Source: Candidatus Omnitrophota bacterium
Lineage (GTDB): Bacteria > Omnitrophota > Gorgyraeia > Zapsychrales > Zapsychraceae
NCBI GenBank assembly: GCA_035292445.1
Contig: DATDQB010000017.1
Location: 55,051 to 119,050, forward strand
Direction: 5' to 3'
DNA: 64,000 nt
Numbering within the stretch: the stretch's first letter is position 1; each line of letters begins with the position of its first letter. The position numbers were made by a program, and so were the translations under genes. The notes under the pieces are model-generated. The model had not been told where the DNA came from. It searched no databases and worked only from the letters and a program-made list of their open reading frames with translations. Shown here one piece after another: positions 1 through 53,828 of the stretch.

Positions 1-28
1 CGGGATTAAAATCCCTGACGATGAGGCG

Positions 29-3000
29 ATGGGGACCGACCCCGCCATGCTGGGGGAAGAGCAGGCGCCAGACACCAGACGCCAAACGCAAGACGATCGC
101 GACGAAGCGATGGCAACCGAAGATGAGGAAGGGCTAAAAAGTTTGATCCGTCAATTGGCGAGCGGTAATAACGTGGATCCAATCGGCGTCCGCAGGCCGG
201 CACCTGCGGGGCCCGTCATAGACATAGCTTCCGCAATGAAATACGACTTTGCTTCTGATGGCGCGGATAACAAGCTGAATAGATGGAATTTGCGGTTTGA
301 AAATTATGAAATCAAAAGCATCAACCTGACAGATGGCGTTTATTATGCGGAATTTCGTTCTTTAGGAAATGCTTTGGGCGCACCGCACATCAGGCATGGT
401 TTAATCAACTCTCGGCAGCTTGATCAGATCATAAGGACGTTAAACAAGATAAGCCCACTCAATTTTATTGAGTTTGAAGGTCTGTTCAGGTATTACAGCG
501 GCTTTCTTGCCCCGCTAGAGGTAAATGAGAGCGAAGACGCCGTATCTTTTAGCTTGAGATGGAGCGGCCGCTCGTTGGATGGATATAAAATTGATGCATC
601 TGAACTTAAGGAGCATCGAGAGGTCGGGTTGACGCTAACAACGCCCAGCGGTGAAAAATCGGTGTTTATGAAAACCTCTGATTTTCTTAATTGGGTTATC
701 GCTCTCCAGCATTTATCGGCAGAAGGCAGGGTGGAGGAATTCAAGGGGCTTTTTGACCGCGAAGATAACGGCGGAATGATGGGCTTTGATTATGACTATA
801 AACTCCTTGATTTTGTAAAGCGACCCCCGCCGGCTTCAACGCCCATTAAGCAACCAAGAACCCTAGAGCAATTATATGATATCATTGCGGGCGCTGAAGC
901 CGGTGCAGCGCTATCCTCCTATACGTTACGCACCTATGACCCTCATAAAAGCATAACCATTACGGTCCTTGCTTACTTTTCCGATGATATTTTTGTTATT
1001 GAGTATTCCAGACCGGAAGAGAGTGGCCACCCCGCCATCAAAAGGCGCGGGTTGCTTAGAAAATATGATCTTGATCAGATGATTTTCGATAAGTATGATT
1101 CCATCAAAACATATATGGACTCCTATGATGCGGAAAGGCTCCCGAGAGAAATGTTTTATGTAGAAAAAACGGCTGAAAAGCTGGAGAAAAATGCATCAAG
1201 CCAATATGAGATCACCCTGGGCAGCTTCCATTATTACCACAATACCAATAAAATCGAGGCCAGTTTTGATCCGGCCATCCCGGATGATGTATCTGTTGAA
1301 ATTTATGATTTAGAAAAAGGGGTTCGGGTCAAAAAATCCGGTACGATGGGCTTTTTTGATTTTTTTGAGATAATAAAAACGGTGTATTTCGGAAGCTATG
1401 GTAATTCGTTCTTAATGGGTGCTCTGTCTGACATGCTCTTACTGAATGATTCTGCGAGCATGATCGCTGATAAGGATTATGGCGCGCGCAAAACCCTCGT
1501 GGCCATACGTTACATCAGGTCATGGCTTAATTCTGATGTGTTTAAGGCGAGCGTCTATAAACCTAAAATGCTGCCGAGCGCGGTCGATCTAACCGTGCAG
1601 AATATAATTCGATTTGACCGATCATTGGATGATGAAATTCAAGAAATTGTTGCCGCTTTATTCGGGGAAATGGGCGCCGCCCTGGGATTAAAAATAGAGA
1701 TATCAAAACGGGAGAACGGCACCTATATACACATCCGCCGAAAGCACGTATTAGGAAAAATTAAAGCTAACGTAACCGAATCAATAGACGACTTTACAAA
1801 AGGAATCCGCCAAAGCATGGGAACATGGTTAAAAGATTTTGAATCTCAGCTGTGGATTGTCCACGCACGGGAAGACGGTTTTGAGGTCATGGACCGACAA
1901 TCCGGCCGCAAGCCAGACCCCGCCATGCTTGGGGAAGAAGAGACGCCAGACGCCAGACGCCAGACACCACATGAACGCGATGAGGCGATGTTAAATATAA
2001 CCTTGAGAGAAGAAATGACTGCGGGAGAACTTGCCGAAAGACTGGGCATTAATATTGAAAGCATAGTTCTTATCTATGGAGAAAATGAAGAGCTGCCTCT
2101 TTTTATTCACCCGACACAAAACCATCCCAATCTGCCTTTAGAAACACAACGCACATATTACATAGACACAAAGAATTTGGATTCTGGAGTTCTGGCCCGA
2201 CTTTTTAATGCGGATTTCATCGGTGGCGTTGGTATTTCAGACATTAAAGAACTGCCTGAAGAAGAAGAGCTTGAAATGCGTTTCAAGATGGCATCGCAAC
2301 AAGTTACGCAAGCTCAAAAAGATTTAGAAGAAGCTCAGCGATCCGCTGATCGCACTGGAAATTATTCGCTAGTTCGTTCTAAAGATAGACTGTTAGAGCT
2401 TGAATTAGCCAACATGGATCGTACGTTAAAAGAACTGCAAAAATTTCGTACGCGAAAGGAAGGTGGCCAAAAGAAAGCTGATGAGGCGATGATGGGGAAG
2501 GAAGAACCGCACATCGTAGATCGCACTTCGTACATCGAAAAAGATAAGGCAATGACAGCTGTTAAACTTAGAGGTTTTACACATTTGGAGCCAACTAGTG
2601 GACGCAGATTTAATGAGGCTGTCTTTGATCTGGAGGGGGTTAACGAACCTGAAACGAACAATACCCACAGAAGATACAGAGAAAATATCGAACAATTGTT
2701 ATCAGATCATGAAGAAATACTCAAAGAACAGGAAAAATTACTTGCCGAAATAGAATCCGCTCTTGACCAAGGAAAAACAGTGGCTATCGGTGTCGAAGAA
2801 GATAGTCAAGGAGTTCAAGAAATCCAACTTGATGCGAGTTTCATTTTAGATCAGATCGTTGAACTCATGCGCATGAGAGGTTTTACTGCCCCCGAAGAGA
2901 AAGCCAGACAGGTATATTTATTAGGAAACGGTGTGGCAAGTTATCTCGTAGCGCTTAAGAAAAATATCCATCTGTTTCCGCTTGAAAACCAAGAATTACG

Positions 3001-3673
3001 TCAACAATCGGGTTCGCTTGCTAGGGAATATGCTGAAATATCGGAAAAATTGAAACCTATATTAATGGGAATTGCTGAATCTGAATTCATTTTATTCGAT
3101 GACACGCTGTATGAAGTAATACTGTCAATCAATGACCCGGATGAGATCTATACAACAATCAACAAATCTGCCGATGCGCTACTAGCAAAATTCCTTGGCA
3201 CTGAACATGAAGCCGATATACGCAGAATGATCGCAATCGCCTCAAAATTCATTCAAAATGCGAGGGAAAGAGAGAAGCCGATGGCAGCTGCAATCAAGGA
3301 ACATGTTCGATCCTATCCGGATTATATTACATTTATTCTTGTTGGCTCCAGCCATGTGGCTGGCTTAAACAGACTTCTAAACAAAAAAGATCAAGAAGTT
3401 GGTGGTATCGATCTTAACCCGCAACTCTTGGACCTTCAGATCAAACGCGATGAAAAGGGAGTACCGCTTCCCGTCAACATGCAGCCCATTCATAATATTC
3501 ATATCGAAGGATTCCTGCCGATCATTATCAACATAACACCGATCAATGTGTCGTTGCCGGTGTATTTGGGATTGGAGGGAGATGGGGAGGATGACACACA
3601 ATTTGGGTTTCAGGATGAATATAAGGCGAGGGAACCGGAGAAAATAAGTTTATTGGATAATAATCTCCAATAA
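29..3673 (+). CDS. large hypothetical protein (1214 aa); the reading frame is open back to window position 2, so it may be 5'-partial
   Basis: Long ORF without Walker or HExxH motifs. An acidic linker motif DEAM../DPAMLGEE.. recurs three times (aa ~1-35, ~630-660, ~815-825). There is a coiled-coil-like segment around aa 760-810. The C-terminal ..FILVGSSHVAGL.. segment weakly resembles the GxxH motif of the Tiki/TraB/GumN superfamily. Confidence 0.5.
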   Translation: MGTDPAMLGEEQAPDTRRQTQDDRDEAMATEDEEGLKSLIRQLASGNNVDPIGVRRPAPAGPVIDIASAMKYDFASDGADNKLNRWNLRFENYEIKSINLTDGVYYAEFRSLGNALGAPHIRHGLINSRQLDQIIRTLNKISPLNFIEFEGLFRYYSGFLAPLEVNESEDAVSFSLRWSGRSLDGYKIDASELKEHREVGLTLTTPSGEKSVFMKTSDFLNWVIALQHLSAEGRVEEFKGLFDREDNGGMMGFDYDYKLLDFVKRPPPASTPIKQPRTLEQLYDIIAGAEAGAALSSYTLRTYDPHKSITITVLAYFSDDIFVIEYSRPEESGHPAIKRRGLLRKYDLDQMIFDKYDSIKTYMDSYDAERLPREMFYVEKTAEKLEKNASSQYEITLGSFHYYHNTNKIEASFDPAIPDDVSVEIYDLEKGVRVKKSGTMGFFDFFEIIKTVYFGSYGNSFLMGALSDMLLLNDSASMIADKDYGARKTLVAIRYIRSWLNSDVFKASVYKPKMLPSAVDLTVQNIIRFDRSLDDEIQEIVAALFGEMGAALGLKIEISKRENGTYIHIRRKHVLGKIKANVTESIDDFTKGIRQSMGTWLKDFESQLWIVHAREDGFEVMDRQSGRKPDPAMLGEEETPDARRQTPHERDEAMLNITLREEMTAGELAERLGINIESIVLIYGENEELPLFIHPTQNHPNLPLETQRTYYIDTKNLDSGVLARLFNADFIGGVGISDIKELPEEEELEMRFKMASQQVTQAQKDLEEAQRSADRTGNYSLVRSKDRLLELELANMDRTLKELQKFRTRKEGGQKKADEAMMGKEEPHIVDRTSYIEKDKAMTAVKLRGFTHLEPTSGRRFNEAVFDLEGVNEPETNNTHRRYRENIEQLLSDHEEILKEQEKLLAEIESALDQGKTVAIGVEEDSQGVQEIQLDASFILDQIVELMRMRGFTAPEEKARQVYLLGNGVASYLVALKKNIHLFPLENQELRQQSGSLAREYAEISEKLKPILMGIAESEFILFDDTLYEVILSINDPDEIYTTINKSADALLAKFLGTEHEADIRRMIAIASKFIQNAREREKPMAAAIKEHVRSYPDYITFILVGSSHVAGLNRLLNKKDQEVGGIDLNPQLLDLQIKRDEKGVPLPVNMQPIHNIHIEGFLPIIINITPINVSLPVYLGLEGDGEDDTQFGFQDEYKAREPEKISLLDNNLQ
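68..95 (+). repeat. heptanucleotide tandem repeat (CCAGACA/CCAGACG/CCAAACG/CAAGACG) inside the CDS
   Basis: Direct reading: four imperfect 7-nt units in tandem. Confidence 0.8.
1946..1966 (+). repeat. heptanucleotide tandem repeat (CCAGACG x2 + CCAGACA) inside the CDS; part of a ~50-nt intragenic direct repeat also seen at 36-110
   Basis: Direct reading. The unit is not a multiple of 3, so changing copy number by one unit frameshifts. Confidence 0.85.
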
Positions 3674-3674
3674 A

Positions 3675-3788
3675 CAAATCCCAAATACCAAACAATATAC
3701 AAACAACAATGACCAAAACTAAAAAATTGGTTATTGGGATTTGAATATTGTGATTTGTTTGGAATTTGGGCTTTGGAATTTGGAAATT
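3675..3788. repeat. heptad-periodic palindromic element between convergent genes
   Basis: Left arm caaatcc caaatac caaacaa tatacaa acaacaa; right arm ttgg ttattgg gatttg.. tttggaa repeats complementary to it. Lies between two stop codons. Confidence 0.7.
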
Positions 3789-3797
3789 AACTTTCCA

Positions 3798-4754
3798 TCA
3801 CCAAATAATTGATTTCACGCTTTTGGGCATTCCATGAATTTTCCCCACAAACCGCACTTCACGAATAAGGTCAAGATTAAACTTTTCCTTAGCCAGCGCC
3901 GCCATCATTTTGTGCAGCTCGAACACGTCTTTCGCCGTGCCGTTCTTTCTTTTGATGATAATATTGGCATGTTTGGGGAAGATATAAGCCCCGCCGGATT
4001 TTAAAGATTTGCCGCCGGCCTGCTCAAGAAACCACCCTGTGGCCTGGCGTTTTCCAGCCTTGGAGGTGGGTTCAATGTTGCGAAAGAATGATCCGGCACA
4101 AGGTTCTTGGGCAAGGTCAGGATGTTTCTCGTGACGCGTTTTTAAAATACCTTCACGCTCTTTAAGCAGTTCTGCCGGATCACCCTCTTTGAAGCTCAAC
4201 GTAACATCAACAACGATATCACCCGTCTCCTTGAGCTTTGAATGGCGGTAGGAGAAACCGCATTCCTTAGCCTGCGCCGTTCTAAGCGTCCCGGAGGAAG
4301 AGAGCAGGCTGACGCTTTTAACCATATCGCCGATCTGCTTGCCGAAAGCCCCCGCATTACCAACGACCGCGCCGCCCACTGTCCCCGGAATGCCGCTGCA
4401 GGTATTAATTCCTTCATAACCCAATTCGGCGGCAAAGACAGCCAGATCATCAAGGATCGTGCTGCCGGAAACTGTTAAGCTGTTATCGCCTTCTTCAATA
4501 TAGGGTGTCTTGCTGAAATAGCGGATCACGTGGCAATCCAGGCCCTCATCGGCAACGACCAGGTTTGACCCGCCGCCGATCAGGATGAATTTTTCTTTCT
4601 TTGCATAAAGCTCTTTGACCGCATCTATTAACTGCCGGGGCGTTTCACAATTGATAAGCCCCTTGCACGCTCCGCCCAAGCGGAAGGTTGTGTAATCGGA
4701 TAATCTGGCATTTTTAATAATTTCATGGGAGAGAGGAAAAATGATTGATTCCAT
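3798..4754 (-). CDS. murB: UDP-N-acetylenolpyruvoylglucosamine reductase
   Basis: 318 aa with an FAD-binding PCMH domain and a MurB C-terminal domain (..GSNLVVADEG.., ..AGSFFRN..). Confidence 0.9.
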   Translation of the reverse strand: MESIIFPLSHEIIKNARLSDYTTFRLGGACKGLINCETPRQLIDAVKELYAKKEKFILIGGGSNLVVADEGLDCHVIRYFSKTPYIEEGDNSLTVSGSTILDDLAVFAAELGYEGINTCSGIPGTVGGAVVGNAGAFGKQIGDMVKSVSLLSSSGTLRTAQAKECGFSYRHSKLKETGDIVVDVTLSFKEGDPAELLKEREGILKTRHEKHPDLAQEPCAGSFFRNIEPTSKAGKRQATGWFLEQAGGKSLKSGGAYIFPKHANIIIKRKNGTAKDVFELHKMMAALAKEKFNLDLIREVRFVGKIHGMPKSVKSIIW

Positions 4755-4759
4755 TTAAT

Positions 4760-4817
4760 TGTAGGGGCGGACTTTACGTCCGCCCGATTAAGGGCAGGTG
4801 CAAGACCTGCCCCTACA
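4760..4817. other. structured intergenic element: outer stem tgtaggggc/gcccctaca enclosing two hairpins (ggcggac-ttta-gtccgcc and gggcaggt-gcaag-acctgccc)
   Basis: Perfect complementary segments read directly. It exactly fills the 64-nt gap between the moeB-fusion stop and the murB start and has no U-tract. A three-way junction is plausible. Confidence 0.5.
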
Positions 4818-4818
4818 T

Positions 4819-6390
4819 TTATTTGACCGTTTCTTTAAATCGATGACGTAGCGCCTCGATGCCGTCTTTGATGGCAAAAATATTCTCGTAACCTTCTTCG
4901 CGCAGCATCTGCGCCAATTGGGAGCTGCGTACGCCCATGCTGCAAAACAGAAGGTATTTCTTATTTTTGGCAAAAGGGGAGGTGTCGCCCGTGACCCGGC
5001 TTAAAGGAACATGTTCACTTTTGATTTCCATGAGTGGACTATCCGCCCGCTCTTCGGCTTCCCTGACATCGACCAACGTAAAACTTTTCAGCAAATCGGC
5101 ATTTAAGGCGTGGCAATCAATAAGAAATTCCGCCAACGGCTCATAATGCTCTTTACTGATCTGTGTGATGACGGCGTCTTTGCCGCACAGAGGGCAACGG
5201 CTTTCCGGTTTGATCTTCAAACGCCTGATATGGAAATCGGCGACGTTAAGAATCAACAATTCGTTCTCGAACACTTTCTGCATGTTTAGAATGATCCGGA
5301 TCGCTTCCATGGCCTGCAGATGGCCGAAAATGTTGGGGATGACGCCCAGGACGCCTCCGTCGACACATGTTCCCACGCAACCAGGTGTTGGAACGGAAGG
5401 CCACAAACAGCGCAGGCACCCTTTTTGAGAAGGGAGCATGACCCGCAACTGGCCTTCCCATTGAAAAATGCCTGCCTGGATGAGCGTCTTGCGGTTAAGA
5501 AAGCAGGCGTCGTTCAAAAGATATTTTGTTTTAATGTCATCGGTGCAATCAAGGACGATGTCATAGTTCTCGATAAGCCGTTGCGCGTTCTCAAGGTTCA
5601 GGTGTTCCTGGTGCGCGTTGATGGTAACGGAAGGGTTGAGCGAATTGATCTTTTCCTTGGCCACCTGGACCTTGGGCCGGCCGATGTCATCGAACCCGTA
5701 AAGGAACTGGCGGTGGAGGTTGCTGAGCTCAACTTTATCGTGTTCGCAAATGCCTATCGTGCCGACACCCGCCCCTGATAAGCTCATGAGCGCCGGGCAG
5801 CCCAAACCGCCGACGCCCACGATCAAAACCTTGGCCTCTTTCAATTTCTTTTGGCCTTCGGCGCCGACCTCGGGAAGATTGATCTGACGGGCGTAGTAAT
5901 CACTTTCTTCGGGTAACCGGTAACCGGTAACCGGTAACGGCGTGGAGTTACCTGTTACCTGTTTCCCGTACTCCGTTGATTTACAACCCACCCATCCCGA
6001 ATCGCCGCCCGCGTAATATTCCTTTTTCCAAATTGGCAACCGCTTTTTTATCTCATCTATGATATATCGGCAGGCTTTAAAAGCCTCATCGCGATGGGCG
6101 GCCAAGCATCCGACCCACACGGCCATTTGACCGACCTCAATGATCCCCAAGCGATGATAACAGCGAAGTTCGATCGTTGAGAATTTTTCCTTCGCCTCCC
6201 GAAAAATCTCCTCGGCCTCCTTCGTGCACAAGGTTTCTTCGGCTTCGTATTCCAGCCGCAGCACTTTCTTGCCATCGCTATGATCGCGCACACGGCCCTC
6301 AAATGTGGCGAAGGCTCCGGCGCTATCGGCGGTGAAGCCCTCTTTAATGTTGATGCGTTCTAAGGGGAGTGAGGTTAGTTTAAACATCAT
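4819..6390 (-). CDS. MoaE (molybdopterin synthase large subunit) - MoeB/ThiF E1-like adenylyltransferase - rhodanese triple-fusion protein
   Basis: N-terminus matches MoaE (..FEGRVRDHSDG..IWKKEYY). The middle has the ThiF/MoeB Rossmann motif (LIVGVGGLGCPA), RQ motif and CxxC..CxxC zinc site. The C-terminus is a rhodanese with catalytic Cys (FCSMGVRS). The first 15 codons of the track ORF (MLVVREQRTTNNEQR) are encoded by the repeat element at 6387-6450, so the start is set at MMFKL. Confidence 0.8.
   Translation of the reverse strand: MMFKLTSLPLERINIKEGFTADSAGAFATFEGRVRDHSDGKKVLRLEYEAEETLCTKEAEEIFREAKEKFSTIELRCYHRLGIIEVGQMAVWVGCLAAHRDEAFKACRYIIDEIKKRLPIWKKEYYAGGDSGWVGCKSTEYGKQVTGNSTPLPVTGYRLPEESDYYARQINLPEVGAEGQKKLKEAKVLIVGVGGLGCPALMSLSGAGVGTIGICEHDKVELSNLHRQFLYGFDDIGRPKVQVAKEKINSLNPSVTINAHQEHLNLENAQRLIENYDIVLDCTDDIKTKYLLNDACFLNRKTLIQAGIFQWEGQLRVMLPSQKGCLRCLWPSVPTPGCVGTCVDGGVLGVIPNIFGHLQAMEAIRIILNMQKVFENELLILNVADFHIRRLKIKPESRCPLCGKDAVITQISKEHYEPLAEFLIDCHALNADLLKSFTLVDVREAEERADSPLMEIKSEHVPLSRVTGDTSPFAKNKKYLLFCSMGVRSSQLAQMLREEGYENIFAIKDGIEALRHRFKETVK
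5912..5961. repeat. heptad-periodic palindromic element embedded in-frame in the MoaE-MoeB linker
   Basis: (ggtaacc)x3 ggtaac - ggcgtggag - (gttacct)x2; same architecture as the intergenic elements. It translates without a stop as ..QVTGNSTPLPVTGYRLPEE.. Confidence 0.75.
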
Positions 6391-6450
6391 TCGTTGTTCG
6401 TTGTTCGTTGTTCGTTGCTCGCGAACAACGAGCAACTAGCAACGAGCAAC
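6387..6450. repeat. heptad-periodic palindromic element between the ferredoxin 3' end and the moaE-fusion 5' end
   Basis: (ttgttcg)x3 ttgctcg | cgaacaa cgagcaa ctagcaa cgagcaa c - arms of complementary 7-mers. Confidence 0.8.
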
Positions 6451-6721: not shown

Positions 6722-6832
6722 TAAGTTAATAGTAAATAGTTAATGGCAAATAGTGTTATCGTTCTAAATGGGGCTTCGTCGCCTTTTTGTCATTTCCCCT
6801 ATTAACTATTAACTATTTACCATTAACACTTT
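6722..6832. repeat. heptad-periodic palindromic element with a 47-nt spacer, overlapping the ispH stop
   Basis: Left arm taagtta atagtaa atagtta atggcaa; right arm tattaac tattaac tatttac cattaac. Confidence 0.75.
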
Positions 6833-10253: not shown

Positions 10254-10349
10254 CTTAGTCATAAGTTATAAGTCGTAAGGAGTAAGTATTCTGCCCGTCA
10301 TAACGCTGTTTTATCCTTACCGCTTACAACTTACTACTTATAACTTAAC
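10254..10349. repeat. heptad-periodic palindromic element overlapping the 3' end of the PHP phosphatase gene
   Basis: Left arm gtcataa gttataa gtcgtaa ggagtaa; 28-nt spacer; right arm ccttacc gcttaca acttact acttata acttaac. Confidence 0.75.
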
Positions 10350-13674: not shown

Positions 13675-13735
13675 TTCTAAGCCATAAGCCTTAAGCTGTA
13701 AGCTTACGGCTTACAACTTACGACTTACAACTAAC
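13675..13735. repeat. heptad-periodic palindromic element
   Basis: ttctaag ccataag ccttaag ctgtaag | cttacgg cttacaa cttacga cttacaa. Confidence 0.8.
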
Positions 13736-13747
13736 AATTCAATTAAC

Positions 13748-18000: not shown

Positions 18001-18066
18001 TAGCCCTAAGCCGTAAGTCTTAAGCCGTATATTTTAAAGCTTACAACTTAAGGCTTACGACTTAAA
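18001..18066. repeat. heptad-periodic palindromic element
   Basis: tagccct aagccgt aagtctt aagccgt | atattttaaa | gcttaca acttaag gcttacg acttaaa. Confidence 0.8.
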
Positions 18067-19086: not shown

Positions 19087-19158
19087 CTTATTGGTTTCCT
19101 GTTTCCTGTTACCAGTTACCTGTAATTATCTGGTAACGGGTAACGGGTAACAGGTAAC
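19087..19158. repeat. heptad-periodic palindromic element
   Basis: cttattg gtttcct gtttcct gttacca gttacct g | taattatc | tggtaac gggtaac gggtaac aggtaac. Confidence 0.8.
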
Positions 19159-20446: not shown

Positions 20447-20450
20447 AAAA

Positions 20451-20519
20451 GTCACCAGTTACCCGTTACCTGTTACCAGATAAAACAGGCAACTGGTAAC
20501 CGGAAACAGGTAACTCGAG
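20451..20519. repeat. heptad-periodic palindromic element between rplM and rpsI
   Basis: gtcacca gttaccc gttacct gttacc | agataaaacaggcaa | ctggtaa ccggaaa caggtaa c. Confidence 0.8.
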
Positions 20520-26203: not shown

Positions 26204-27376
26204 GTGAAGATGAAAAAAGTTGTCTTAGCATATTCGGGCGGGTTGGACACCTCCTGTGCGATCAAATGGCTTCAAGAACGCGGCTATGAAACGATCGCCT
26301 TTATCGCCGATGTCGGACAAAAGGAAAATTTTGCCGAGATCAAAAAACGCGCGTTGAACACAGGCGCGAAAAAAGTCCATGTCGTTGACCTGAAAAAAGA
26401 ATTCGTTCAAGATTACGTTTTCCCGGCCATTAAAGCCAGCGCCGTCTATGAAAAGAAATATTTCCTGGCAACGGCCCTTTCGCGGCCGTTGATCGCCAAG
26501 CACCAAGTATATATCGCGCAAAAAGAAAAAGCGCAGGCGATCGCCCACGGCTGCACGGGAAAAGGCAATGACCAGGTGCGTTTTGAAGTGACGGCACGCT
26601 TGCTGGATCCGACATTGGAAATTATCGCACCGGTGCGCATATGGGAATTTAAAACGCGCGATGAAGAGATCGATTACGCCAAAGCCAAGAACATCAAGAT
26701 CGATGTCACCAAGAAAAGCCCTTACAGCGTTGATCTGAACCTCTACGGGCGCAGCATCGAATGCGGCGTGCTGGAAGACCCCTGGCGCGAGCCGCCGGAA
26801 GAAATTTATTTCCTGACGCAAAATCCGCTTAAAGCGCCGAACAAACCGACGTACATTACGGTGGATTTTGCCAAAGGTGTACCGGTCAAGATCAACGGCA
26901 AAAGCTATGCACCGGTTGAACTGATCCACCAGTTGAACGCGATCGGCGGGAAGAACAGTGTTGGCCGTGTCGATATGGTGGAAAACCGGTTAGTTGGCAT
27001 CAAATCCCGGGAGATCTATGAAAACCCAGGGGCCACCATCATCCATACCGCCAAGCACGAATTGGAGACTCTGGTTCTGGATCGGGAGACCATGCATTAT
27101 AAAGAATCCATCTCGCAAAAATATGGCGAGATGATCTATTACGGATTGTGGGAAACACCGCTTAAGAAACAACTGGATGCATATTTCAATTCCATCTCGC
27201 AGCGCGTGAGTGGAACTGTGCGGTTAAAATTGTATAAAGGTAATTGCACGGTGGTGGGACGAAAATCCAAGCACTCCCGTTATCAGGAAAAGCTCGCCAC
27301 TTACGGAAAAAAAGATGTTTTTGATCAAAAATTAGCGGATGGATTCATTAAACTGTGGGGCATGCCATATTCGTAA
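26204..27376 (+). CDS. argG: argininosuccinate synthase
   Basis: ..AYSGGLDTS.. PP-loop. Confidence 0.9.
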   Translation: MKMKKVVLAYSGGLDTSCAIKWLQERGYETIAFIADVGQKENFAEIKKRALNTGAKKVHVVDLKKEFVQDYVFPAIKASAVYEKKYFLATALSRPLIAKHQVYIAQKEKAQAIAHGCTGKGNDQVRFEVTARLLDPTLEIIAPVRIWEFKTRDEEIDYAKAKNIKIDVTKKSPYSVDLNLYGRSIECGVLEDPWREPPEEIYFLTQNPLKAPNKPTYITVDFAKGVPVKINGKSYAPVELIHQLNAIGGKNSVGRVDMVENRLVGIKSREIYENPGATIIHTAKHELETLVLDRETMHYKESISQKYGEMIYYGLWETPLKKQLDAYFNSISQRVSGTVRLKLYKGNCTVVGRKSKHSRYQEKLATYGKKDVFDQKLADGFIKLWGMPYS

Positions 27377-27464
27377 ATAGTTAATAGTAAATAGTGGATA
27401 GTGGATTTTAATGCCCCCGGACATTTTAATTTGTCCTATTAACTATGAACCATTTACTATTCAC
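27377..27464. repeat. heptad-periodic palindromic element between argG and argH
   Basis: atagtta atagtaa atagtgg atagtgg | 27-nt spacer | tcctatt aactatg aaccatt tactatt cac. Confidence 0.75.
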
Positions 27465-50105: not shown

Positions 50106-51347
50106 TTGCCCAAATTTTCCTATACAGCAAAAGACGCGTCCGGTAAAACCATCAAAGACGTCATGGATGCCCCTAGTCAAAACACAGTGGTGGAGCGCCT
50201 GCAAAAAAAAGAGCTCTTTGTTATCAATATTAATGAGCTGTCTTTCTCTTCTCCGGCGGCCAAAAGAGCCCTTGCCAAAAAGAAAAAAACAAAACGCTTC
50301 ACTCATAAAAAGGTCAAACTCGGCGACTTGCTCACCTTTGCGCGCCAATTGGCCACCATGCTGGAAGCCGGTGTTTCCATGATCCGAAGCCTGGATGTTA
50401 TCTGTTCCCAAATTCAAAGCGAACAATTCCATAAGGTCGCAAGAAAAATACGTGATGATGTGGAACAAGGGGGCGCTTTAAGTAACGCCTTGTCCAATCA
50501 TCCCAAGGTTTTTAACCAATTCTGGACTAGTTTGATCGAGGTTGGAGAGGCCTCAGGAACGATTCCCGTAGTTTTAAATAAGCTGACTTTCTATCTGGAA
50601 CAACAAGCAAAATTCAGATCAACCATCATTTCGGGGTTGATCTATCCGGCCATTCTCTTTACTGTTTCCATGGGAGCGGTCGCCTTTTTTGCCTTATTCG
50701 TAGGGCCGCGGTTTGAAAGTATTTTTGAATCCATGGACGTGGACTTGCCTGTAATCACCGTTATTTTACTGGCGGTCTTCAAATTCATTAAAAGCAACAT
50801 TTTGTTCTTAATTGCCGGCGTTGCTTTATCTATTTTTCTATTTCGTAAATACATAAAAACATACCATGGCCGACTGCAATGGGAGAAATTCATGTTTGCT
50901 TTGCCCCAAGCCGGGGAAGTGTACCGTTTGATTATCGTTGAACGCTTCGCATCACAAATGGCCATTTTGATTGACTCCGGAGTTCCCATTCTTTATGCTT
51001 TGGACATTACAGAGCGGCTCGTTGACAACAACACCTGTGCACTGATTGTTAATGATATCAAGGAAGCGGTCAGGGAAGGGGTTCTTTTGGCCGATCCTAT
51101 GGAAAAAAGCGACTTCTTTCCGGCCATGGCTGTTCAAATGGTGCAGGTGGGGGAGGAAACAGGAGAGCTCAGTAAGATGTTAAAGCATGTTTCCGCTTTT
51201 TACCAGGATCACATCGAAACATTCATGTCCCGTTTTGCAACGATTGTCGAACCTTTTATGCTGGTTTTTATGGGGGCGATCATCGGCACCATCGTCTTGG
51301 CTATGTTCCTTCCCATGTTTAACATTGCTCAGCTGGGAGGGGGATAA
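50106..51347 (+). CDS. pilC: type IV pilus inner-membrane platform protein (GspF family)
   Basis: Two T2SSF domains, 413 aa. Confidence 0.9.
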   Translation: MPKFSYTAKDASGKTIKDVMDAPSQNTVVERLQKKELFVININELSFSSPAAKRALAKKKKTKRFTHKKVKLGDLLTFARQLATMLEAGVSMIRSLDVICSQIQSEQFHKVARKIRDDVEQGGALSNALSNHPKVFNQFWTSLIEVGEASGTIPVVLNKLTFYLEQQAKFRSTIISGLIYPAILFTVSMGAVAFFALFVGPRFESIFESMDVDLPVITVILLAVFKFIKSNILFLIAGVALSIFLFRKYIKTYHGRLQWEKFMFALPQAGEVYRLIIVERFASQMAILIDSGVPILYALDITERLVDNNTCALIVNDIKEAVREGVLLADPMEKSDFFPAMAVQMVQVGEETGELSKMLKHVSAFYQDHIETFMSRFATIVEPFMLVFMGAIIGTIVLAMFLPMFNIAQLGGG

Positions 51348-51494: not shown

Positions 51495-51600
51495 GGTTAT
51501 TGTCCAAGGGTAAACCATTCGAAAGAGTGGGGCACAAAGCTAAAGGGCCCGGGAGTCCAAGTCAGATATTGGATGGGGGGGCAGCCAGCTACCAATAATC
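51495..51600 (+). ncRNA. cyclic-di-GMP-I (GEMM) riboswitch aptamer
   Basis: AGGGUAAACCAUUCGAAAGAGUGGGGCACAAAGCU matches the Vc2 GEMM-I core AGGGCAAACCAUUCGAAAGAGUGGGACGCAAAGCC at 31 of 35 positions. It has a GNRA (GAAA) loop in P2, and a P1 stem ggttattg / caataatc closes the domain. Confidence 0.8.
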
Positions 51601-51689: not shown

Positions 51690-52106
51690 ATGAAACTCAA
51701 TCGCAGAAGTGGCTTTACCTTACTTGAAATTATCATTGTTATCATTATTGTAGGTGTTCTTGCTTCTTTGGCTTTACCTCGATTCTTCAGTACAGTCGAA
51801 TTCTCCAGATCAACAGAAGCACTTACATCCATGTCCACCGTTCGTCAATCCATTGAACGATGCTACATAGCATCAAACAATAACTATTCCTCATGCATCA
51901 TTGGTGCTATTGACGTTGAAAACCCAGGAATCTCACCAGGGGCTCACTTTACCTACGTGGTCACCGTAGCGCCTACTACTTTCCGAATTGTGGCCCAAAG
52001 AAACGCTGTTAATGCTGGGGACGGCACATCAACAATTAGCCTTGGAGGCAGTTCGGGTGCTGGTGTTGCTAGAAGCGGTAGTGGTGTATTCGTTGGTATC
52101 AAATAA
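51690..52106 (+). CDS. type IVa major pilin (prepilin N-methylation site G|FTLLE)
   Basis: MKLNRRSGFTLLEIIIVIIIVGVLASLALP..; strong SD aaaaggag. Confidence 0.85.
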   Translation: MKLNRRSGFTLLEIIIVIIIVGVLASLALPRFFSTVEFSRSTEALTSMSTVRQSIERCYIASNNNYSSCIIGAIDVENPGISPGAHFTYVVTVAPTTFRIVAQRNAVNAGDGTSTISLGGSSGAGVARSGSGVFVGIK

Positions 52107-52133
52107 CCCGTTCTTTACAACGGCTTAAGTTTA

Positions 52134-52176
52134 CAGAAACATCGAAGCTTTGACTTTCAAGGCTTCGATGTTTCTG
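52134..52176 (+). terminator. perfect 15-bp hairpin (cagaaacatcgaagc / gcttcgatgtttctg) after the first pilin gene; no U-tract
   Basis: Direct reading. Confidence 0.5.
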
Positions 52177-52208
52177 TGTAAGGCTACGAAAGAAGGGGTT
52201 GATGAACC

Positions 52209-52640
52209 GTGATTTTTTCCCATTTTAAAAAGAAATTCGCTCCCCAAGGCTTTACCTTAATAGAAGTAGCCGTCACCATCATACTTATAGGGGTGGTCGT
52301 GTCACTGGCCTTACCGCAATTCTCCATCACGACCAAACGCTCCCGCTCTTCCGAAGGCGTCCAAATCCTCTCTGCCATATGGAGAGCCCAGAACTTATAC
52401 ACTTTTGAAAATGGTTCGGCAGCTGGCAACTTAACCGATCTCGACATCGAAATTCCATCGCCTCTGACTAATTTCAACACACCTGTTTTATATACAACCG
52501 ATGGACAAACCGCTTATATTGTCGACAATAATAGCGATTATCGCTTGTACATCGATACTACCGGTACCATTACCTGTGATGACACCCCGGGCTTGGCCGG
52601 CATATGTGCGAAGATGGCTTTTGCCGCCTACCCGTACTAG
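52209..52640 (+). CDS. type IV pilin-like protein 2
   Basis: ..QGFTLIEVAVTIILIGVVVSLALP.. Confidence 0.75.
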   Translation: MIFSHFKKKFAPQGFTLIEVAVTIILIGVVVSLALPQFSITTKRSRSSEGVQILSAIWRAQNLYTFENGSAAGNLTDLDIEIPSPLTNFNTPVLYTTDGQTAYIVDNNSDYRLYIDTTGTITCDDTPGLAGICAKMAFAAYPY

Positions 52641-52656
52641 GCAAGAAAAGGCACAA

Positions 52657-53043
52657 ATGAATTGGATAGTTCGTAAAAAAGGGTTTAGCTTGATAGAAGT
52701 GATAACGGCCCTTCTCGTTGTTGCCGCTATTACCGGTATTGCCCTTCCTAGATTTACGCTGCAGCTGGAACGAACAAAAAGCGCGGAAGCCGTTCATATC
52801 CTGGAATCCATTTACAACGCCCAACGGGCCTACTTTTATGAATATCAGGCCTATGCGAGCGCGCTCTCCGCCTTGGATGTCACCGTGCCGGCGCCGGAGG
52901 GTTTCAACGCCCCAACAGCCGCTTCGAGCGATCCCATTGCCAGCATCGCGAGCAAAAGCGGAAATTATACGTTAAGAATAGATAGCGCCGGGGCCTTGAG
53001 CTGTGTCGGTACCGGTACCATCTGCACCCAATTGGGATATTAA
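52657..53043 (+). CDS. type IV pilin-like protein 3
   Basis: ..KGFSLIEVITALLVVAAITGIALP... Start is at MNWIV; the upstream part of the track ORF overlaps pilin 2. Confidence 0.75.
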   Translation: MNWIVRKKGFSLIEVITALLVVAAITGIALPRFTLQLERTKSAEAVHILESIYNAQRAYFYEYQAYASALSALDVTVPAPEGFNAPTAASSDPIASIASKSGNYTLRIDSAGALSCVGTGTICTQLGY

Positions 53044-53058
53044 AATGAAGGAGAAACG

Positions 53059-53469
53059 ATGAGATCAAGAACCGGTTTTACTTTAGTAGAATTAATGGTC
53101 GTGGTCGTCATTATCGGTATCCTGGCCAGCTTTGCGCTGCCCCAATATCAAAAGGCGGTGCGGAAAGCTCATGAACGCGACGCGGTTATCCAACTCACCT
53201 CGTTGCATGCCGCCAATATCATGTATGAAGCAAAACAAGACGCCTATTTGGCAGGGAACCCTTTAAACTTAGCTCAAATCAATAGCGGCCTTAACCTGAA
53301 TATCATAGCCAATGATATGACGTACTCCTATACCAGCACGGTCGCAACAGCCTACACGGCAACGGCCGCATGGACTGATTTTACTGTTCGAGTTAATCAG
53401 ACGCCTATTGCTGCTGGCACCAACCCTTGCTGTTCAGCCGGTACTTGTCCGACTTTACCGGCCTGTTAA
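53059..53469 (+). CDS. type IV pilin-like protein 4
   Basis: MRSRTGFTLVELMVVVVIIGILASFALP.. Confidence 0.75.
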   Translation: MRSRTGFTLVELMVVVVIIGILASFALPQYQKAVRKAHERDAVIQLTSLHAANIMYEAKQDAYLAGNPLNLAQINSGLNLNIIANDMTYSYTSTVATAYTATAAWTDFTVRVNQTPIAAGTNPCCSAGTCPTLPAC

Positions 53470-53478
53470 AGACGCGAT

Positions 53479-53823
53479 ATGCTAAAAATTCTTAAAAAAG
53501 AGGGGTTCGCATCTATCGTGGAAGTGATCGTGGCTTCCATTATCTTTCTGGTGACAGCCTTCGGGATATTTGCCGCTATCTCCATGCTACGGCCCCAAGG
53601 AACGACGTCCATCAAACGGCTCGAAGCCGTTTTGGCCGGGAAACGCGTCATCGATGAAATAAGGGCGGATGTCTACGGCAACCTTTGGGCCAGCGGTAGC
53701 CCTTTAGACACTGGGACGCTTTACACTCAAACCATCGGCTCTGTTACGGTCAATTATTATACCGCGGATGTCCCGAACCTTCCTTTAAGGAAATTGTATA
53801 TGAATGTTTCCTATCCCGATTAA
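53479..53823 (+). CDS. minor pseudopilin (PilV/GspI-like)
   Basis: ..EGFASIVEVIVASIIFLV.. Confidence 0.6.
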   Translation: MLKILKKEGFASIVEVIVASIIFLVTAFGIFAAISMLRPQGTTSIKRLEAVLAGKRVIDEIRADVYGNLWASGSPLDTGTLYTQTIGSVTVNYYTADVPNLPLRKLYMNVSYPD

Positions 53824-53828
53824 GGGTT

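What the first reader, a model, noticed from the sequence alone, without database searches (positions are those of the whole stretch)
1..3673. Giant uncharacterised protein with recurring acidic DEAM/PAMLGEE linkers, possibly truncated by the window edge
The 1214-aa ORF has no recognisable catalytic motif and its frame is open to position 2, so the protein may extend upstream. An acidic linker (..DEAMGTDPAMLGEEQAPDTRRQT..DEAM..) recurs at aa ~1, ~630 and ~815, and a ~50-nt DNA direct repeat at 36-110 is found again at 1914-1995. These linkers split the protein into modules. There is a coiled-coil stretch around aa 760-810. The last ~200 aa show a weak GxxH-type motif (FILVGSSHVAGL), reminiscent of Tiki/TraB/GumN proteins. 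It is flanked by murB and housekeeping genes, so the function is entirely unknown.
Basis: partly seen in the sequence, partly recalled or inferred. Interest (0 to 1): 0.55.

Follow-up and report, generated by a model that had tools for sequence, protein, structure and literature searches.

The report
Tail of giant Omnitrophota modular protein
The ORF is the last fifth of a 6,166-residue "string of enzymes" protein of an uncultured Omnitrophota bacterium; its modules are joined by a conserved D-x-A-M motif wrapped around slippage-prone 7-base repeats, which gives concrete candidate break points for giant proteins whose processing is an open question.

Summary
The frame is open to the window edge, and the ORF is the C-terminal 1,223 aa of a 6,166-aa protein (NCBI HLF18455.1, Candidatus Omnitrophota).

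The "acidic linkers" are real junctions. The motif D-x-A-M occurs 17 times in the protein against 0.7 expected, and always between modules. Three junctions are doubles: two D-x-A-M motifs 21 aa apart that flank a heptanucleotide tandem array.

One array (window 1941-1961) has one unit fewer in an otherwise identical assembly (0 SNPs in 21 kb). That splits the gene exactly at the Met of DEAM.

The last ~90 aa form a strongly conserved, uncurated C-terminal domain. It occurs in at least 1,584 protein clusters, almost all labelled Omnitrophota, and always at the ORF end. 54 of 63 complete long members also share a signal-peptide-bearing ~380-aa N-terminal domain. Cargo between the two ends is variable: here PGDH-like, SDR, kinase and permuted beta-PGM modules; in paralogs TIM, PGK, PGM and PPDK.

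The Tiki/TraB hunch gets only sub-threshold support.

Best reading: an envelope-tethered fusion of whole genes, joined through heptamer-repeat spacers, that can be partitioned at its junctions. Proteolytic cleavage there is plausible but unproven.

The parts
2..3673 (+). C-terminal 1,223 codons plus stop of a 6,166-aa gene (P0153 = NCBI HLF18455.1); the frame runs off the left edge of the window
20..49 (+). Junction motifs DEAM (20-31) and DPAM (38-49). This is the end of the permuted beta-PGM module and the start of double junction J1.
62..95 (+). Heptanucleotide array (CAGACGC x4.9, 77% matches) encoding ..APDTRRQTQD.., lying between the two D-x-A-M motifs of J1
101..112 (+). DEAM, the downstream motif of J1; its ATG is at 110-112
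113..1915 (+). Orphan module of ~600 aa (protein aa 4981-5581). No Pfam or NCBIfam hit, and no homolog among the listed top 150 hits of the exhaustive search.
1916..1927 (+). DPAM, the upstream motif of double junction J2
1941..1969 (+). Heptanucleotide array (AGACGCC x4.1; three perfect units at 1941-1961). It is copy-number polymorphic: one unit is missing in assembly ERZ27254861 (L001), which is otherwise identical.
1979..1994 (+). DEAM with its ATG at 1988-1990, inside ATGTTAA. In the one-unit-shorter variant the upstream ORF stops at this TAA, and the called 561-aa downstream ORF starts at this ATG.
1991..2479 (+). Module 13: orphan, with a weak HTH-like start (HTH_20 E=0.75) and a charged, heptad-like helical stretch
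2252..2365 (+). Best coiled-coil-like stretch (ORF aa 742-779)
   Evidence: crude heptad scan; NCBIfam ATP synthase subunit b E=0.052 in the same area
2480..2554 (+). Double junction J3: DEAM (2480-2491), a period-14 array (2508-2537), and DKAM (2543-2554, whose ATG forms an ATGA overlap with a +1-frame stop)
2555..3400 (+). Tiki/TraB/ChaN-like module (protein aa 5795-6075), containing GSSH. It is homologous at 25-28% identity to modules in P0001, P0024 and P0035, where it is flanked by [RK]DGG motifs.
3401..3574 (+). Core of the conserved Omnitrophota C-terminal domain (GGIDLNPQLLDLQIKRD..GVPLP..QPI..I.GFLPIIINITP..LP.YLGL)
3575..3673 (+). Variable acidic tail ending in the semi-conserved ..AREPEKISLL.. 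motif, plus the stop codon

Best explanation
SHOWN. The ORF is the C-terminal fifth of a 6,166-aa protein of an uncultured Omnitrophota bacterium. The protein belongs to a large paralogous family restricted to that phylum. Its layout is:
- a Sec-type signal sequence and a ~380-aa conserved N-terminal domain;
- about 13 unrelated modules;
- a ~60-90-aa conserved C-terminal domain.

The modules include a PGDH-like 2-hydroxyacid dehydrogenase, OGFr_N, a P-loop kinase, SDR domains, a circularly permuted beta-phosphoglucomutase, two orphan modules and a Tiki/TraB-like module.

Modules are separated by the motif D-x-A-M followed by a hydrophobic residue. The three junctions inside the window are doubles: two motifs 21 aa apart that enclose a heptanucleotide tandem array.

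INFERRED, step 1 (origin). The chain arose by in-frame fusion of whole genes. The Met of the motif sits where a free-standing enzyme would start. The spacers are of the same kind as the heptamer-repeat elements that fill this genome's intergenic regions.

INFERRED, step 2 (default product). The normal product is one long chain tethered to the envelope. The N-terminal domain is exported, internal hydrophobic segments anchor the chain, and sugar- and hydroxy-acid-modifying enzymes are held together at the membrane. The C-terminal domain acts as a shared docking or sorting handle, read by some conserved partner specific to the phylum.

INFERRED, step 3 (partition). The chain can be divided at its junctions. 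Genetic partition by gain or loss of one 7-nt unit has been observed once. It truncates the upstream part and leaves the downstream modules as a separate ORF that starts at the motif's ATG. Proteolytic partition at D-x-A-M is possible; I put it at about 0.3.

I am about 0.9 confident of identity and anatomy, and about 0.4 confident of the functional steps.
For: Identity
- The exact-sequence look-up gives a 6,166-aa product in independent assemblies. The tail is identical to the window.

Junction motif
- 17 observed against 0.69 expected. Other window genes are at background.
- CTD-family proteins as a whole are ~9-fold enriched.
- The residue after Met is Leu in 39% of cases and hydrophobic in most.
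- No motif falls inside any Pfam, NTD, CTD or Tiki-like envelope.
- The PGDH-like module starts at the natural enzyme N-terminus right after DSAM.
- The same Tiki-like module is bounded by DKAM here and by [RK]DGG in other lineages.

C-terminal domain (CTD)
- 1,584 hits at E<1e-3 in the 50%-clustered library, and 147 of the top 150 are to the CTD.
- In 92 ORFs from 80 GTDB loci it is always at the ORF end. 58 loci are labelled Omnitrophota; the rest are MAGs labelled 'uncultured Planctomycetales' or 'bacterium'.
- Identity by codon position is 0.68/0.85/0.42, which indicates purifying selection at the protein level.

N-terminal domain (NTD)
- Present in 54 of 63 complete CTD proteins of at least 700 aa, at E~1e-140.

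Cargo in paralogs
- TIM, PGK and PGM; PPDK and an E1-like domain.

Heptamer arrays
- 21 period-7 TRF rows in the window against 0.6 per shuffle.
- They lie exactly between the paired motifs of all three double junctions.
- In the 80 loci they are enriched 7-fold just upstream of CTD starts.
- The MoaE-ThiF fusion next door carries an in-frame heptamer hairpin in its interdomain linker.

Polymorphism
- L001 differs from L003, L002, L005 and the window by one 7-nt unit only, with 0 SNPs over 9.9 kb of gene plus 11 kb of flank.
- The resulting ORFs meet at ATGTTAA of DEAM.
Against: - There is no experimental or proteomic evidence for cleavage, restart or localisation.
- No protease was identified. 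The Tiki-like module is only a sub-threshold candidate, and no neighbouring gene is conserved across 80 loci.
- Single junctions at protein aa 2974, 3327, 3802 and 4696 have no heptamer array nearby. Slippage therefore cannot explain the motif in general.
- The arrays have only 3-5 units, which is short for a classical contingency tract. The single polymorphism could be a deleterious mutant or an assembly fault.
- The signal peptide and TM segments were judged from sequence and hydropathy only.
- CTD proteins that lack the NTD have no signal peptide, so the CTD cannot be a simple post-Sec sorting signal.
- The CTD is acidic on both sides of its hydrophobic stretch, and AlphaFold gives it no confident fold (pLDDT 58).
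- D-x-A-M-hydrophobic also looks like an ordinary helix N-cap, so it need not be recognised by anything.
Confidence: 0.5

Rival explanations
1. Proteolytic polyprotein. The giant chain is a precursor. A dedicated protease cuts at or next to D-x-A-M, and at [RK]DGG or (A/S)SSP[VI] in other lineages. This releases individual enzymes and excises the 21-aa spacer peptides of the double junctions. The same enzyme may recognise the related [ND]-P-A-[LM]-L motif at the start of the CTD.
For: - The motif is strongly enriched and lies only between modules.
- Different lineages use different junction motifs around the same module.
- In this protein and in homologs, TM or Tat-like (RRDFLRK) segments follow junctions directly, as if each module were an independent pre-protein.
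- The CTD's first motif is NPALL, DPALL, NPAML or DPAML.
- The literature suspects cleavage of Omnitrophota giants but states that cleavage points are unknown (10.1101/2023.11.21.568195).
Against: - No protease domain was found in the protein by Pfam.
- No neighbouring protease gene is conserved.
- There is no proteomic evidence.
- The motif is compatible with a plain helix N-cap.
Confidence: 0.3
2. Uncleaved beads-on-a-string scaffold. The protein works only as one chain. D-x-A-M is a structural helix cap at the start of each module, and the heptamer arrays are neutral hitch-hikers. The L001 variant is a dead allele or an assembly error.
For: - Residue preferences at D-x-A-M-hydrophobic fit helix N-terminal positions (inference from general knowledge of helix capping).
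- The arrays are short.
- Only one variant was seen.
- Published topology surveys treat such proteins as single membrane-anchored chains (10.64898/2026.06.07.730766).
Against: - It does not explain why unrelated modules all begin with the same four residues, including an invariant Met.
- It does not explain why other lineages use chemically different motifs at the same boundaries.
- It does not explain why period-7 arrays specifically, and not periods 6, 8 or 9, gather in linkers.
Confidence: 0.25
3. A 'stop-less operon' read by internal initiation. The conserved ATG of each D-x-A-M is routinely used as an internal translation start, so modules are also made as separate proteins from the one mRNA.
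For: - Met is invariant and is encoded only by ATG.
- The gene caller accepts the DEAM ATG as a start in the frameshifted allele.
- In both alternative frames, stops lie -16 to +25 nt from the downstream ATG at all three double junctions, including ATGA and ATGTTAA overlaps.
Against: - The codons before the ATG vary (GAY NNN GCN) and give no usable Shine-Dalgarno spacing.
- Real gene starts in the window have AT-rich upstream regions and look nothing like this context.
- The conservation is at the amino-acid level: x varies while D and A are fixed.
- The closeness of the stops to the ATG has a chance probability of only about 0.01-0.1 by my estimate.
Confidence: 0.07
4. Secreted adhesin or effector with a C-terminal secretion signal, as in T1SS RTX adhesins or T9SS cargo. 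The CTD would drive export of the whole chain to the cell surface for prey attachment, as proposed for Archaeovorins.
For: - The domain is at the extreme C-terminus, has many paralogs per genome and is restricted to one phylum.
- Most long members have an N-terminal signal sequence.
- The literature proposes surface roles for Omnitrophota giants (PMC10066038).
Against: - The cargo is NAD(P)-, ATP- and SAM-type cytoplasmic enzymes.
- Paralogs carry TIM, PGK, PGM and PPDK, and fragments carry gyrase A, a response regulator and an acyl-CoA dehydrogenase.
- Short CTD proteins have no signal peptide.
- No adhesin, dockerin or RTX domains were found.
- The CTD shows no beta-sandwich prediction.
Confidence: 0.15
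5. A plain 1,214-aa protein of a known type (Tiki/TraB-like) that starts at the ATG at nt 29, or an assembly artefact or pseudogene.
For: An ATG exists at nt 29.
Against: - The frame is open upstream and continues for 4,943 more residues in at least four independent assemblies with identical sequence.
- The catalytic motifs of the SDR and PGDH-like modules look intact on reading the sequence.
- An 18.5-kb open frame cannot be chance.
Confidence: 0.01

Closest known systems
Omnitrophota giant or long proteins ('Archaeovorins' and the SP+TM multi-enzyme long proteins): West-Roberts et al. 2023 bioRxiv 10.1101/2023.11.21.568195; Seymour et al. 2023 PMC10066038; 2026 preprint 10.64898/2026.06.07.730766
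   Same: - Same phylum.
- A very long single ORF with an N-terminal signal sequence and scattered hydrophobic segments.
- Mostly unannotated sequence interspersed with metabolic enzyme domains. HAD_2, PPDK, TIM, PGM and others are reported in Archaeovorins.
- The same open question of whether the chain is cut.
   Different: - 6.2 kaa, not 30-147 kaa.
- No dockerin/TSP3, C39, S8 or SecA domains.
- Defined instead by a shared N-terminal domain, a shared C-terminal domain, the D-x-A-M junction motif and heptamer-array spacers. None of these is mentioned in the three papers (text searches).
Viral and eukaryotic polyproteins (for example picornavirus and potyvirus 3C/NIa sites)
   Same: One ORF carrying several unrelated functional modules, with a short lineage-specific motif at every boundary.
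   Different: No protease has been identified and no cleavage shown. The host is a bacterium, and the modules are housekeeping-type enzymes.
C-terminal protein-sorting domains (T9SS CTD/PorU, PEP-CTERM/exosortase, LPXTG/sortase, GlyGly-CTERM/rhombosortase); from general knowledge, with T9SS CTD in PMC11285876 (listed)
   Same: - Extreme C-terminal position.
- Dozens of paralogs with unrelated cargo.
- Restriction to one phylum.
- A signature motif followed by a hydrophobic stretch and a charged tail.
   Different: - The tail is acidic, not basic.
- The hydrophobic stretch carries three conserved prolines.
- Many members lack a signal peptide.
- There is no beta-sandwich prediction.
- No partner enzyme is known.
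Tiki/TraB/PrgY/GumN/ChaN superfamily (Pfam PF01963, PF18950, PF04187)
   Same: Sub-threshold hits to three families of the clan, and a C-terminal GxxH (GSSH) in the expected position.
   Different: - All scores are below the gathering cut-offs.
- The first GxxH is absent; the aligned position reads AIGVEED.
- One homolog (P0035) has lost the His.
- The fold was not tested.
Simple-sequence contingency loci (phase variation by slipped-strand mispairing in coding repeats whose unit is not a multiple of 3); general knowledge
   Same: A 7-nt tandem array inside an ORF. A one-unit length difference between otherwise identical genomes switches the frame.
   Different: - Only 3-5 units.
- The switch does not simply turn the gene off. 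It divides a fusion protein at a module boundary, next to an in-frame ATG.
Cyanobacterial STRR elements (short tandemly repeated repetitive sequences, 7-bp units, hairpin-forming, function unknown; PMC2670836)
   Same: Heptanucleotide tandem arrays that are mostly intergenic and able to form hairpins.
   Different: - A different phylum.
- Units differ from site to site, with no shared consensus.
- Arrays occur as inverted pairs that give stems with a mismatch every 7 nt.
- Some lie in frame inside coding linkers.
Junction motifs of polymorphic toxins (VENN in CdiA, PxxxxDPxGL in Rhs); general knowledge
   Same: A short conserved peptide marks the border between a constant part and swappable modules.
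   Different: There are many junctions per protein, the modules are enzymes rather than toxins, and no immunity genes are present.

Membership tests
Omnitrophota giant/long proteins (West-Roberts 2023; 2026 preprint) | Encoded in an Omnitrophota genome | tested here: met
   NCBI names the protein as Candidatus Omnitrophota. The CTD family loci are labelled Omnitrophota in 58 of 80 cases.
Omnitrophota giant/long proteins (West-Roberts 2023; 2026 preprint) | Extreme length (at least 30,000 aa for 'giant'/Archaeovorin) | tested here: not met
   6,166 aa. This fits only the looser 'long protein' notion.
Omnitrophota giant/long proteins (West-Roberts 2023; 2026 preprint) | Signal peptide and/or transmembrane segments | tested here: inconclusive
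   Hydropathy and sequence reading give an N-terminal h-region at 11-29 followed by ALAQA, plus TM-like segments at 1545-1571 and 3012-3030. No SignalP or DeepTMHMM was available.
Omnitrophota giant/long proteins (West-Roberts 2023; 2026 preprint) | Archaeovorin/dockerin-type hallmark domains (dockerin+TSP3, C39 or S8 peptidase, SecA-like) | tested here: not met
   Pfam scans of the full length found only 2-Hacid_dh, OGFr_N, adh_short/KR and HAD.
Tiki/TraB/PrgY/GumN/ChaN superfamily | Profile match above the curated threshold | tested here: not met
   Best results were TraB_PrgY_gumN E=0.008 (in a homolog), DUF5694 E=0.023 (15.5 bits against a cut-off of 27.5) and ChaN E=0.036. The PDB profile search found nothing.
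Tiki/TraB/PrgY/GumN/ChaN superfamily | Two GxxH motifs | tested here: not met
   Only the C-terminal GSSH is present. The N-terminal conserved block reads AIGVEED / AVAVELD / AIGVELE, without His.
Tiki/TraB/PrgY/GumN/ChaN superfamily | Tiki-like alpha/beta fold | not tested
C-terminal sorting signals (T9SS CTD, PEP-CTERM, LPXTG types) | Extreme C-terminal position on many unrelated cargo proteins within one lineage | tested here: met
C-terminal sorting signals (T9SS CTD, PEP-CTERM, LPXTG types) | All members carry an N-terminal Sec signal | tested here: not met
   TIM, PGK and PGM fusions and 9 of 63 long members have no signal-like N-terminus.
C-terminal sorting signals (T9SS CTD, PEP-CTERM, LPXTG types) | Motif, then TM helix, then basic tail (or an Ig-like beta-sandwich for T9SS) | tested here: not met
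   The tail is acidic and the hydrophobic stretch is rich in Pro. The AlphaFold model has almost no secondary structure, pLDDT 58.
C-terminal sorting signals (T9SS CTD, PEP-CTERM, LPXTG types) | Co-occurring dedicated sorting enzyme | not testable with these tools
   This needs whole-genome phylogenetic profiling. The local neighbourhood shows no conserved partner.
Proteolytically processed polyprotein | Conserved short motif at every module boundary | tested here: met
   17 D-x-A-M motifs at 14 junctions, none inside a recognised domain.
Proteolytically processed polyprotein | Cognate protease and demonstrated cleavage products | not testable with these tools
   No protease domain was found, and no proteomic data are accessible.
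Simple-sequence contingency locus | In-ORF tandem repeat whose unit is not a multiple of 3 | tested here: met
   Period-7 arrays at 62-95 and 1941-1969, and a period-14 array at 2508-2537.
Simple-sequence contingency locus | Repeat-number variation between closely related genomes that switches the frame | tested here: met
   One case: 2 perfect units against 3, with 0 SNPs in ~21 kb.
Simple-sequence contingency locus | Long, hypermutable tract and within-population ON/OFF heterogeneity | tested here: inconclusive
   The tract has only 3-5 units. Read-level heterogeneity could not be examined.

The most novel reading that the evidence does not exclude
Omnitrophota build their long and giant proteins as reversible 'stop-less operons'. 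Whole genes are stitched in frame through heptanucleotide-repeat spacers bounded by a D-x-A-M signal. The chain is then taken apart again at the same points in two ways. Genetically, one-unit slippage truncates the upstream part and the downstream part restarts at the motif's ATG. Post-translationally, a phylum-specific protease or sorting machine cuts there and also reads the related [ND]-P-A-[LM]-L motif of the universal C-terminal domain. That would be a bacterial polyprotein and cassette system with defined cut sites, and a mechanism by which giant genes grow.
Probability: 0.2. Interest if true: 0.85.

Novelty: new variant of a known kind. Interest (0 to 1): 0.6.

Why it matters
Giant and long ORFs are a hallmark of Omnitrophota. 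The papers that describe them state that it is unknown whether the products act as one chain or are cut, and that the lack of known cleavage points blocks analysis.

This locus offers testable anatomy for a sizeable subclass, with at least 1,584 protein clusters carrying the C-terminal domain:
- a shared N-terminal domain and a shared C-terminal domain that define the family;
- a four-residue junction motif that marks every module boundary;
- heptanucleotide arrays in the linkers, one of which differs by a single unit between otherwise identical genomes and splits the gene exactly at a junction.

If confirmed, this would explain how such genes grow, by read-through fusion across repeat-filled spacers, and how their products are partitioned. 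It would also give proteomics precise peptides to look for.

If the motif is merely structural, the result is still a useful annotation. It adds two new domain families, and it corrects the name 'SDR family oxidoreductase' for a 6,166-aa protein.

Tried and rejected
Searches that returned nothing:
- Word-indexed homology searches with the full 1,214 aa and with the Tiki-like alignment returned nothing. The one with the CTD profile returned only short contig-edge fragments.
- A JGI metagenome scan for the upstream part found nothing. The full protein came instead from an exact-sequence cluster look-up of the frameshifted 561-aa product.

Structure work:
- AlphaFold of the CTD (28-sequence alignment) gave pLDDT 58 with no fold, so no fold search was run on it.
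- The afdb50 library was unavailable.
- PDB sequence and profile searches for the CTD, NTD and Tiki-like module were empty.

Ideas tested and dropped or left open:
- Conserved neighbouring gene (protease or transporter): none. The best cluster occurs in 7 of 80 loci.
- D-x-A-M as a Shine-Dalgarno/start context: rejected on codon variability and on comparison with real starts.
- CTD as a DNA-level repeat or mobile element: rejected, because third codon positions are saturated while second positions are conserved.
- CTD as a classical tail anchor: not supported by the flanking charges.
- Stand-alone short CTD genes: these are mostly frameshifted tails of long ORFs.
- The closeness of alternative-frame stops to the junction ATGs is suggestive but within what chance could give. 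I estimate p at about 0.01-0.1.

Full report
1. CHECK OF THE OBSERVATION

The ORF 29..3673(+) exists, and its frame is open from nt 2. It has no Pfam or NCBIfam hit above threshold. The only relevant weak hit is DUF5694, E=0.11.

The reported DNA repeat is real: 75 nt at 38-112 and 1916-1990, 83% identical. The linkers share the motif D-x-A-M at translated residues 7, 13, 34, 639, 660, 827 and 848.

murB, a MoaE-ThiF-rhodanese gene, ispH and ispG follow on the right. A crude heptad scan puts the most coiled-coil-like stretch at ORF aa 742-779.

2. THE ORF IS THE TAIL OF A 6,166-AA PROTEIN

An exact look-up of the neighbouring MurB returned six contigs from ENA, Logan and JGI assemblies of groundwater metagenomes. 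In these the gene continues upstream, with called products of 6,166 aa, 5,980 aa (cut by the contig end), or 5,604 + 561 aa.

The last 1,223 residues are identical to the window. Through the 561-aa product I obtained the whole sequence: P0153 = NCBI HLF18455.1, annotated 'SDR family NAD(P)-dependent oxidoreductase [Candidatus Omnitrophota bacterium]'.

Pfam finds these domains:
- 2-Hacid_dh at 1972-2263
- OGFr_N at 2779-2943
- adh_short at 4167-4371
- HAD at 4716-4824

Comparison with the PDB adds two points. The first module is PGDH-like and begins at the natural N-terminus of such enzymes, directly after DSAM. The HAD module is a circularly permuted beta-phosphoglucomutase: residues 31-158 match 8h5s 129-259, and residues 173-250 match 8h5s 19-97.

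3. A FAMILY DEFINED BY ITS TWO ENDS

An exhaustive phmmer search of 1.84 billion cluster representatives gave 1,584 hits at E<1e-3. Of the 150 listed, 147 match only the last ~90 aa, and always at their own C-terminus. Those proteins are 63-4,763 aa long.

The core reads GGIDLNPxLLDLQIKRDGxGVPLPLxQQPIxxMxIxGFxPVIINxTPVxNLPLLLG, with about 15 invariant positions. Nucleotide identity by codon position is 0.68/0.85/0.42, which shows selection on the protein and not on the DNA.

A scan of one genome per GTDB species gave 80 loci. 58 are labelled Omnitrophota, 17 are 'uncultured Planctomycetales' MAGs and 5 are 'bacterium'. Several loci come from the same genome, and some carry the genes in tandem.

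The domain is absent from Pfam, NCBIfam and PDB sequences. AlphaFold gives it no confident fold: pLDDT 58 and almost no secondary structure.

Between the two ends the content varies. Paralogs carry TIM, PGK and PGM, and PPDK and an E1-like domain. Fragments carry gyrase A, response-regulator and acyl-CoA dehydrogenase domains. A kinase module of P0153 recurs at 60% identity just before the CTD of another protein.

Short CTD proteins without the N-terminal domain have no signal sequence.

4. THE JUNCTIONS

P0153 has 17 D-x-A-M motifs against 0.69 expected. The other genes of the window are at background, 0.12 per 1,000 aa. The CTD family as a whole is about 9-fold enriched.

The residue after Met is Leu in 39% of cases and is usually hydrophobic. 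The x position is A, E, S, P, K or Q.

None of the 14 junction sites lies inside a recognised domain. By my estimate the chance of that is about 0.02, given 25% domain coverage.

TM-like segments follow two junctions directly, at 1532 and 2974.

The last module of the window (aa 852-1133) is homologous to modules in P0001, P0024 and P0035. There the same boundaries carry [RK]DGG instead of D-x-A-M, and the module is preceded by TM or Tat-like RRDFLRK segments.

Within 30 aa upstream of 270 CTDs, 47 have D-x-A-M and 65 have (A/S)SSP[VIL]. The CTD's own first motif is [ND]-P-x-[LM]-L, and in some members it is literally DPAML.

5. HEPTANUCLEOTIDE ARRAYS

The three junctions in the window are doubles, with two motifs exactly 21 aa apart. 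In each, the space between the motifs is a period-7 or period-14 tandem array: 62-95, 1941-1969 and 2508-2537.

Such arrays are a property of this genome. There are 21 period-7 rows in 64 kb, against 0.6 per shuffled window. Most are intergenic. They come as inverted pairs that fold into long hairpins with a mismatch every 7 nt, with z-scores of -4.6 to -7.5.

One pair lies in frame in the linker between the MoaE and ThiF domains of the neighbouring fusion gene.

In the 80 related loci, period-7 arrays end within 120 nt upstream of a CTD start 7 times, against 0.94 expected. Other periods do so 0-2 times. Recurrent linker peptides (PDARRQT, TQDTRHK, SHQSPVT) are translations of such arrays (and my own reading).

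6. A NATURAL SPLIT AT A JUNCTION

Contig L001 differs from L003, L002, L005 and the window by the loss of one GCCAGAC unit in the 1941-1961 array and by nothing else. There are 0 SNPs in 9.9 kb of gene and 11 kb of flank.

The upstream ORF then ends at the TAA of ATGTTAA. The downstream 561-aa ORF starts at that ATG, which is the Met of DEAM.

At all three double junctions, the first stop in either alternative frame lies -16 to +25 nt from the downstream ATG, and J3 has an ATGA overlap. This is suggestive but not beyond chance.

The motif is not a ribosome-binding context. Four single junctions have no array nearby. The motif must therefore be selected at the protein level.

7. INTERPRETATION

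Shown: the identity, the modular anatomy, the two terminal domains, the junction motif, the arrays and one length polymorphism.

Inferred:
- The chain grew by in-frame fusion of whole genes across heptamer-repeat spacers.
- It is exported or anchored through its N-terminus and its hydrophobic segments, and it holds carbohydrate- and hydroxy-acid-modifying enzymes at the envelope.
- The CTD is a docking or sorting handle.
- The chain can be partitioned at its junctions by slippage and possibly by proteolysis.

The rivals are a pure uncleaved scaffold, a true polyprotein, internal initiation, and a secreted adhesin with a C-terminal signal. They are weighed in the structured fields.

8. COMPARISON WITH WHAT IS KNOWN

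Long and giant ORFs with signal peptides, TM segments and metabolic domains are known in Omnitrophota. The authors of that work suspect cleavage but say that cleavage points are unknown.

Text searches of the three key papers, and of the library for 'GGIDLN', 'polyprotein' and 'heptanucleotide' together with Omnitrophota, found no description of the terminal domains, the motif or the arrays.

The protein lacks the Archaeovorin hallmark domains and is 5-25 times shorter. I therefore file it as a new variant of a known kind.

The Tiki/TraB resemblance remains a lead and is not membership. The heptamer arrays resemble cyanobacterial STRR elements.

Noticed in passing
window 3758-3785, 6390-6450, 6724-6827, 10257-10347, 13678-13737, 18002-18066, 19094-19158, 20450-20479, 27373-27406: Intergenic regions are full of heptanucleotide tandem arrays: 21 period-7 TRF rows against 0.6 per shuffle. 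They usually occur as inverted pairs with site-specific units, and they fold into long hairpins with a mismatch every 7 nt (dG -18 to -35 kcal/mol, z -4.6 to -7.5). They resemble cyanobacterial STRR elements. I found no report of them for Omnitrophota.
   Followed up: partly
window 4819-6390 (-), arrays at 5912-5938 and 5947-5963: This is a MoaE-ThiF/MoeB-rhodanese fusion gene. An inverted heptamer pair ((GGTAACC)n / (GTTACCT)n) lies in frame exactly in the linker between the MoaE and ThiF domains, as if an intergenic spacer had been read through.
   Followed up: partly
window 51499-51596 (+), with genes at 50106-51347 and 51690-54488: A c-di-GMP-I riboswitch (53 bits) sits after a PilC-like gene and directly upstream of a run of five or six type IV pilin/pseudopilin-like genes, which have GFTLxE N-termini. 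This suggests c-di-GMP control of pilus subunits in this Omnitrophota genome.
   Followed up: partly
L003:4762-5511 (-), = P0153 aa 4700-4949, ending at window nt 19: The HAD module is a circularly permuted beta-phosphoglucomutase. The C-terminal two thirds of the enzyme come first, then a short connector, then the motif-I (DxDG) N-terminal third, which runs straight into the DEAM junction.
   Followed up: partly
L080:5946-5966 and the CTD at ~6001; also L083:5934-5994, L009:5747-5780, L031:5975-5999, L050:5978-5994: In other Omnitrophota genomes, heptamer arrays lie in the linker just before the CTD. In L080 a 2,004-aa ORF and its CTD are in different frames right at a (CAGTCAC)3 array.
   Followed up: partly
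L056:886-983: Fourteen perfect copies of ACACGGA lie immediately downstream of a CTD-bearing gene. This is the longest heptamer tract seen.
   Followed up: no
P0024 (2,040 aa) and P0001, the homologs of the Tiki-like module: In these proteins, junctions are [RK]DGG and are followed directly by Tat-signal-like RRDFLRK plus a hydrophobic segment, repeated inside one ORF. It looks as if several exported pre-proteins were concatenated.
   Followed up: no
L054, L035, L082, L071, L026, L049: Two or three CTD-bearing genes lie in tandem on the same strand in several genomes.
   Followed up: no
P0157, P0175; 17 loci: Some CTD-bearing fragments and MAGs are labelled Deltaproteobacteria, Bathyarchaeia or 'uncultured Planctomycetales'. 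These are probably mis-binned or mislabelled Omnitrophota contigs, but this was not verified.
   Followed up: no
P0153 aa 1532-1575 and 2974-3035 (outside the window): Two junctions are followed by similar hydrophobic units: D-x-A-M-LG, then a weak hydrophobic stretch containing VPFTA, then a strong TM-like stretch, then a basic cluster. These may be a repeated membrane-anchor module.
   Followed up: no
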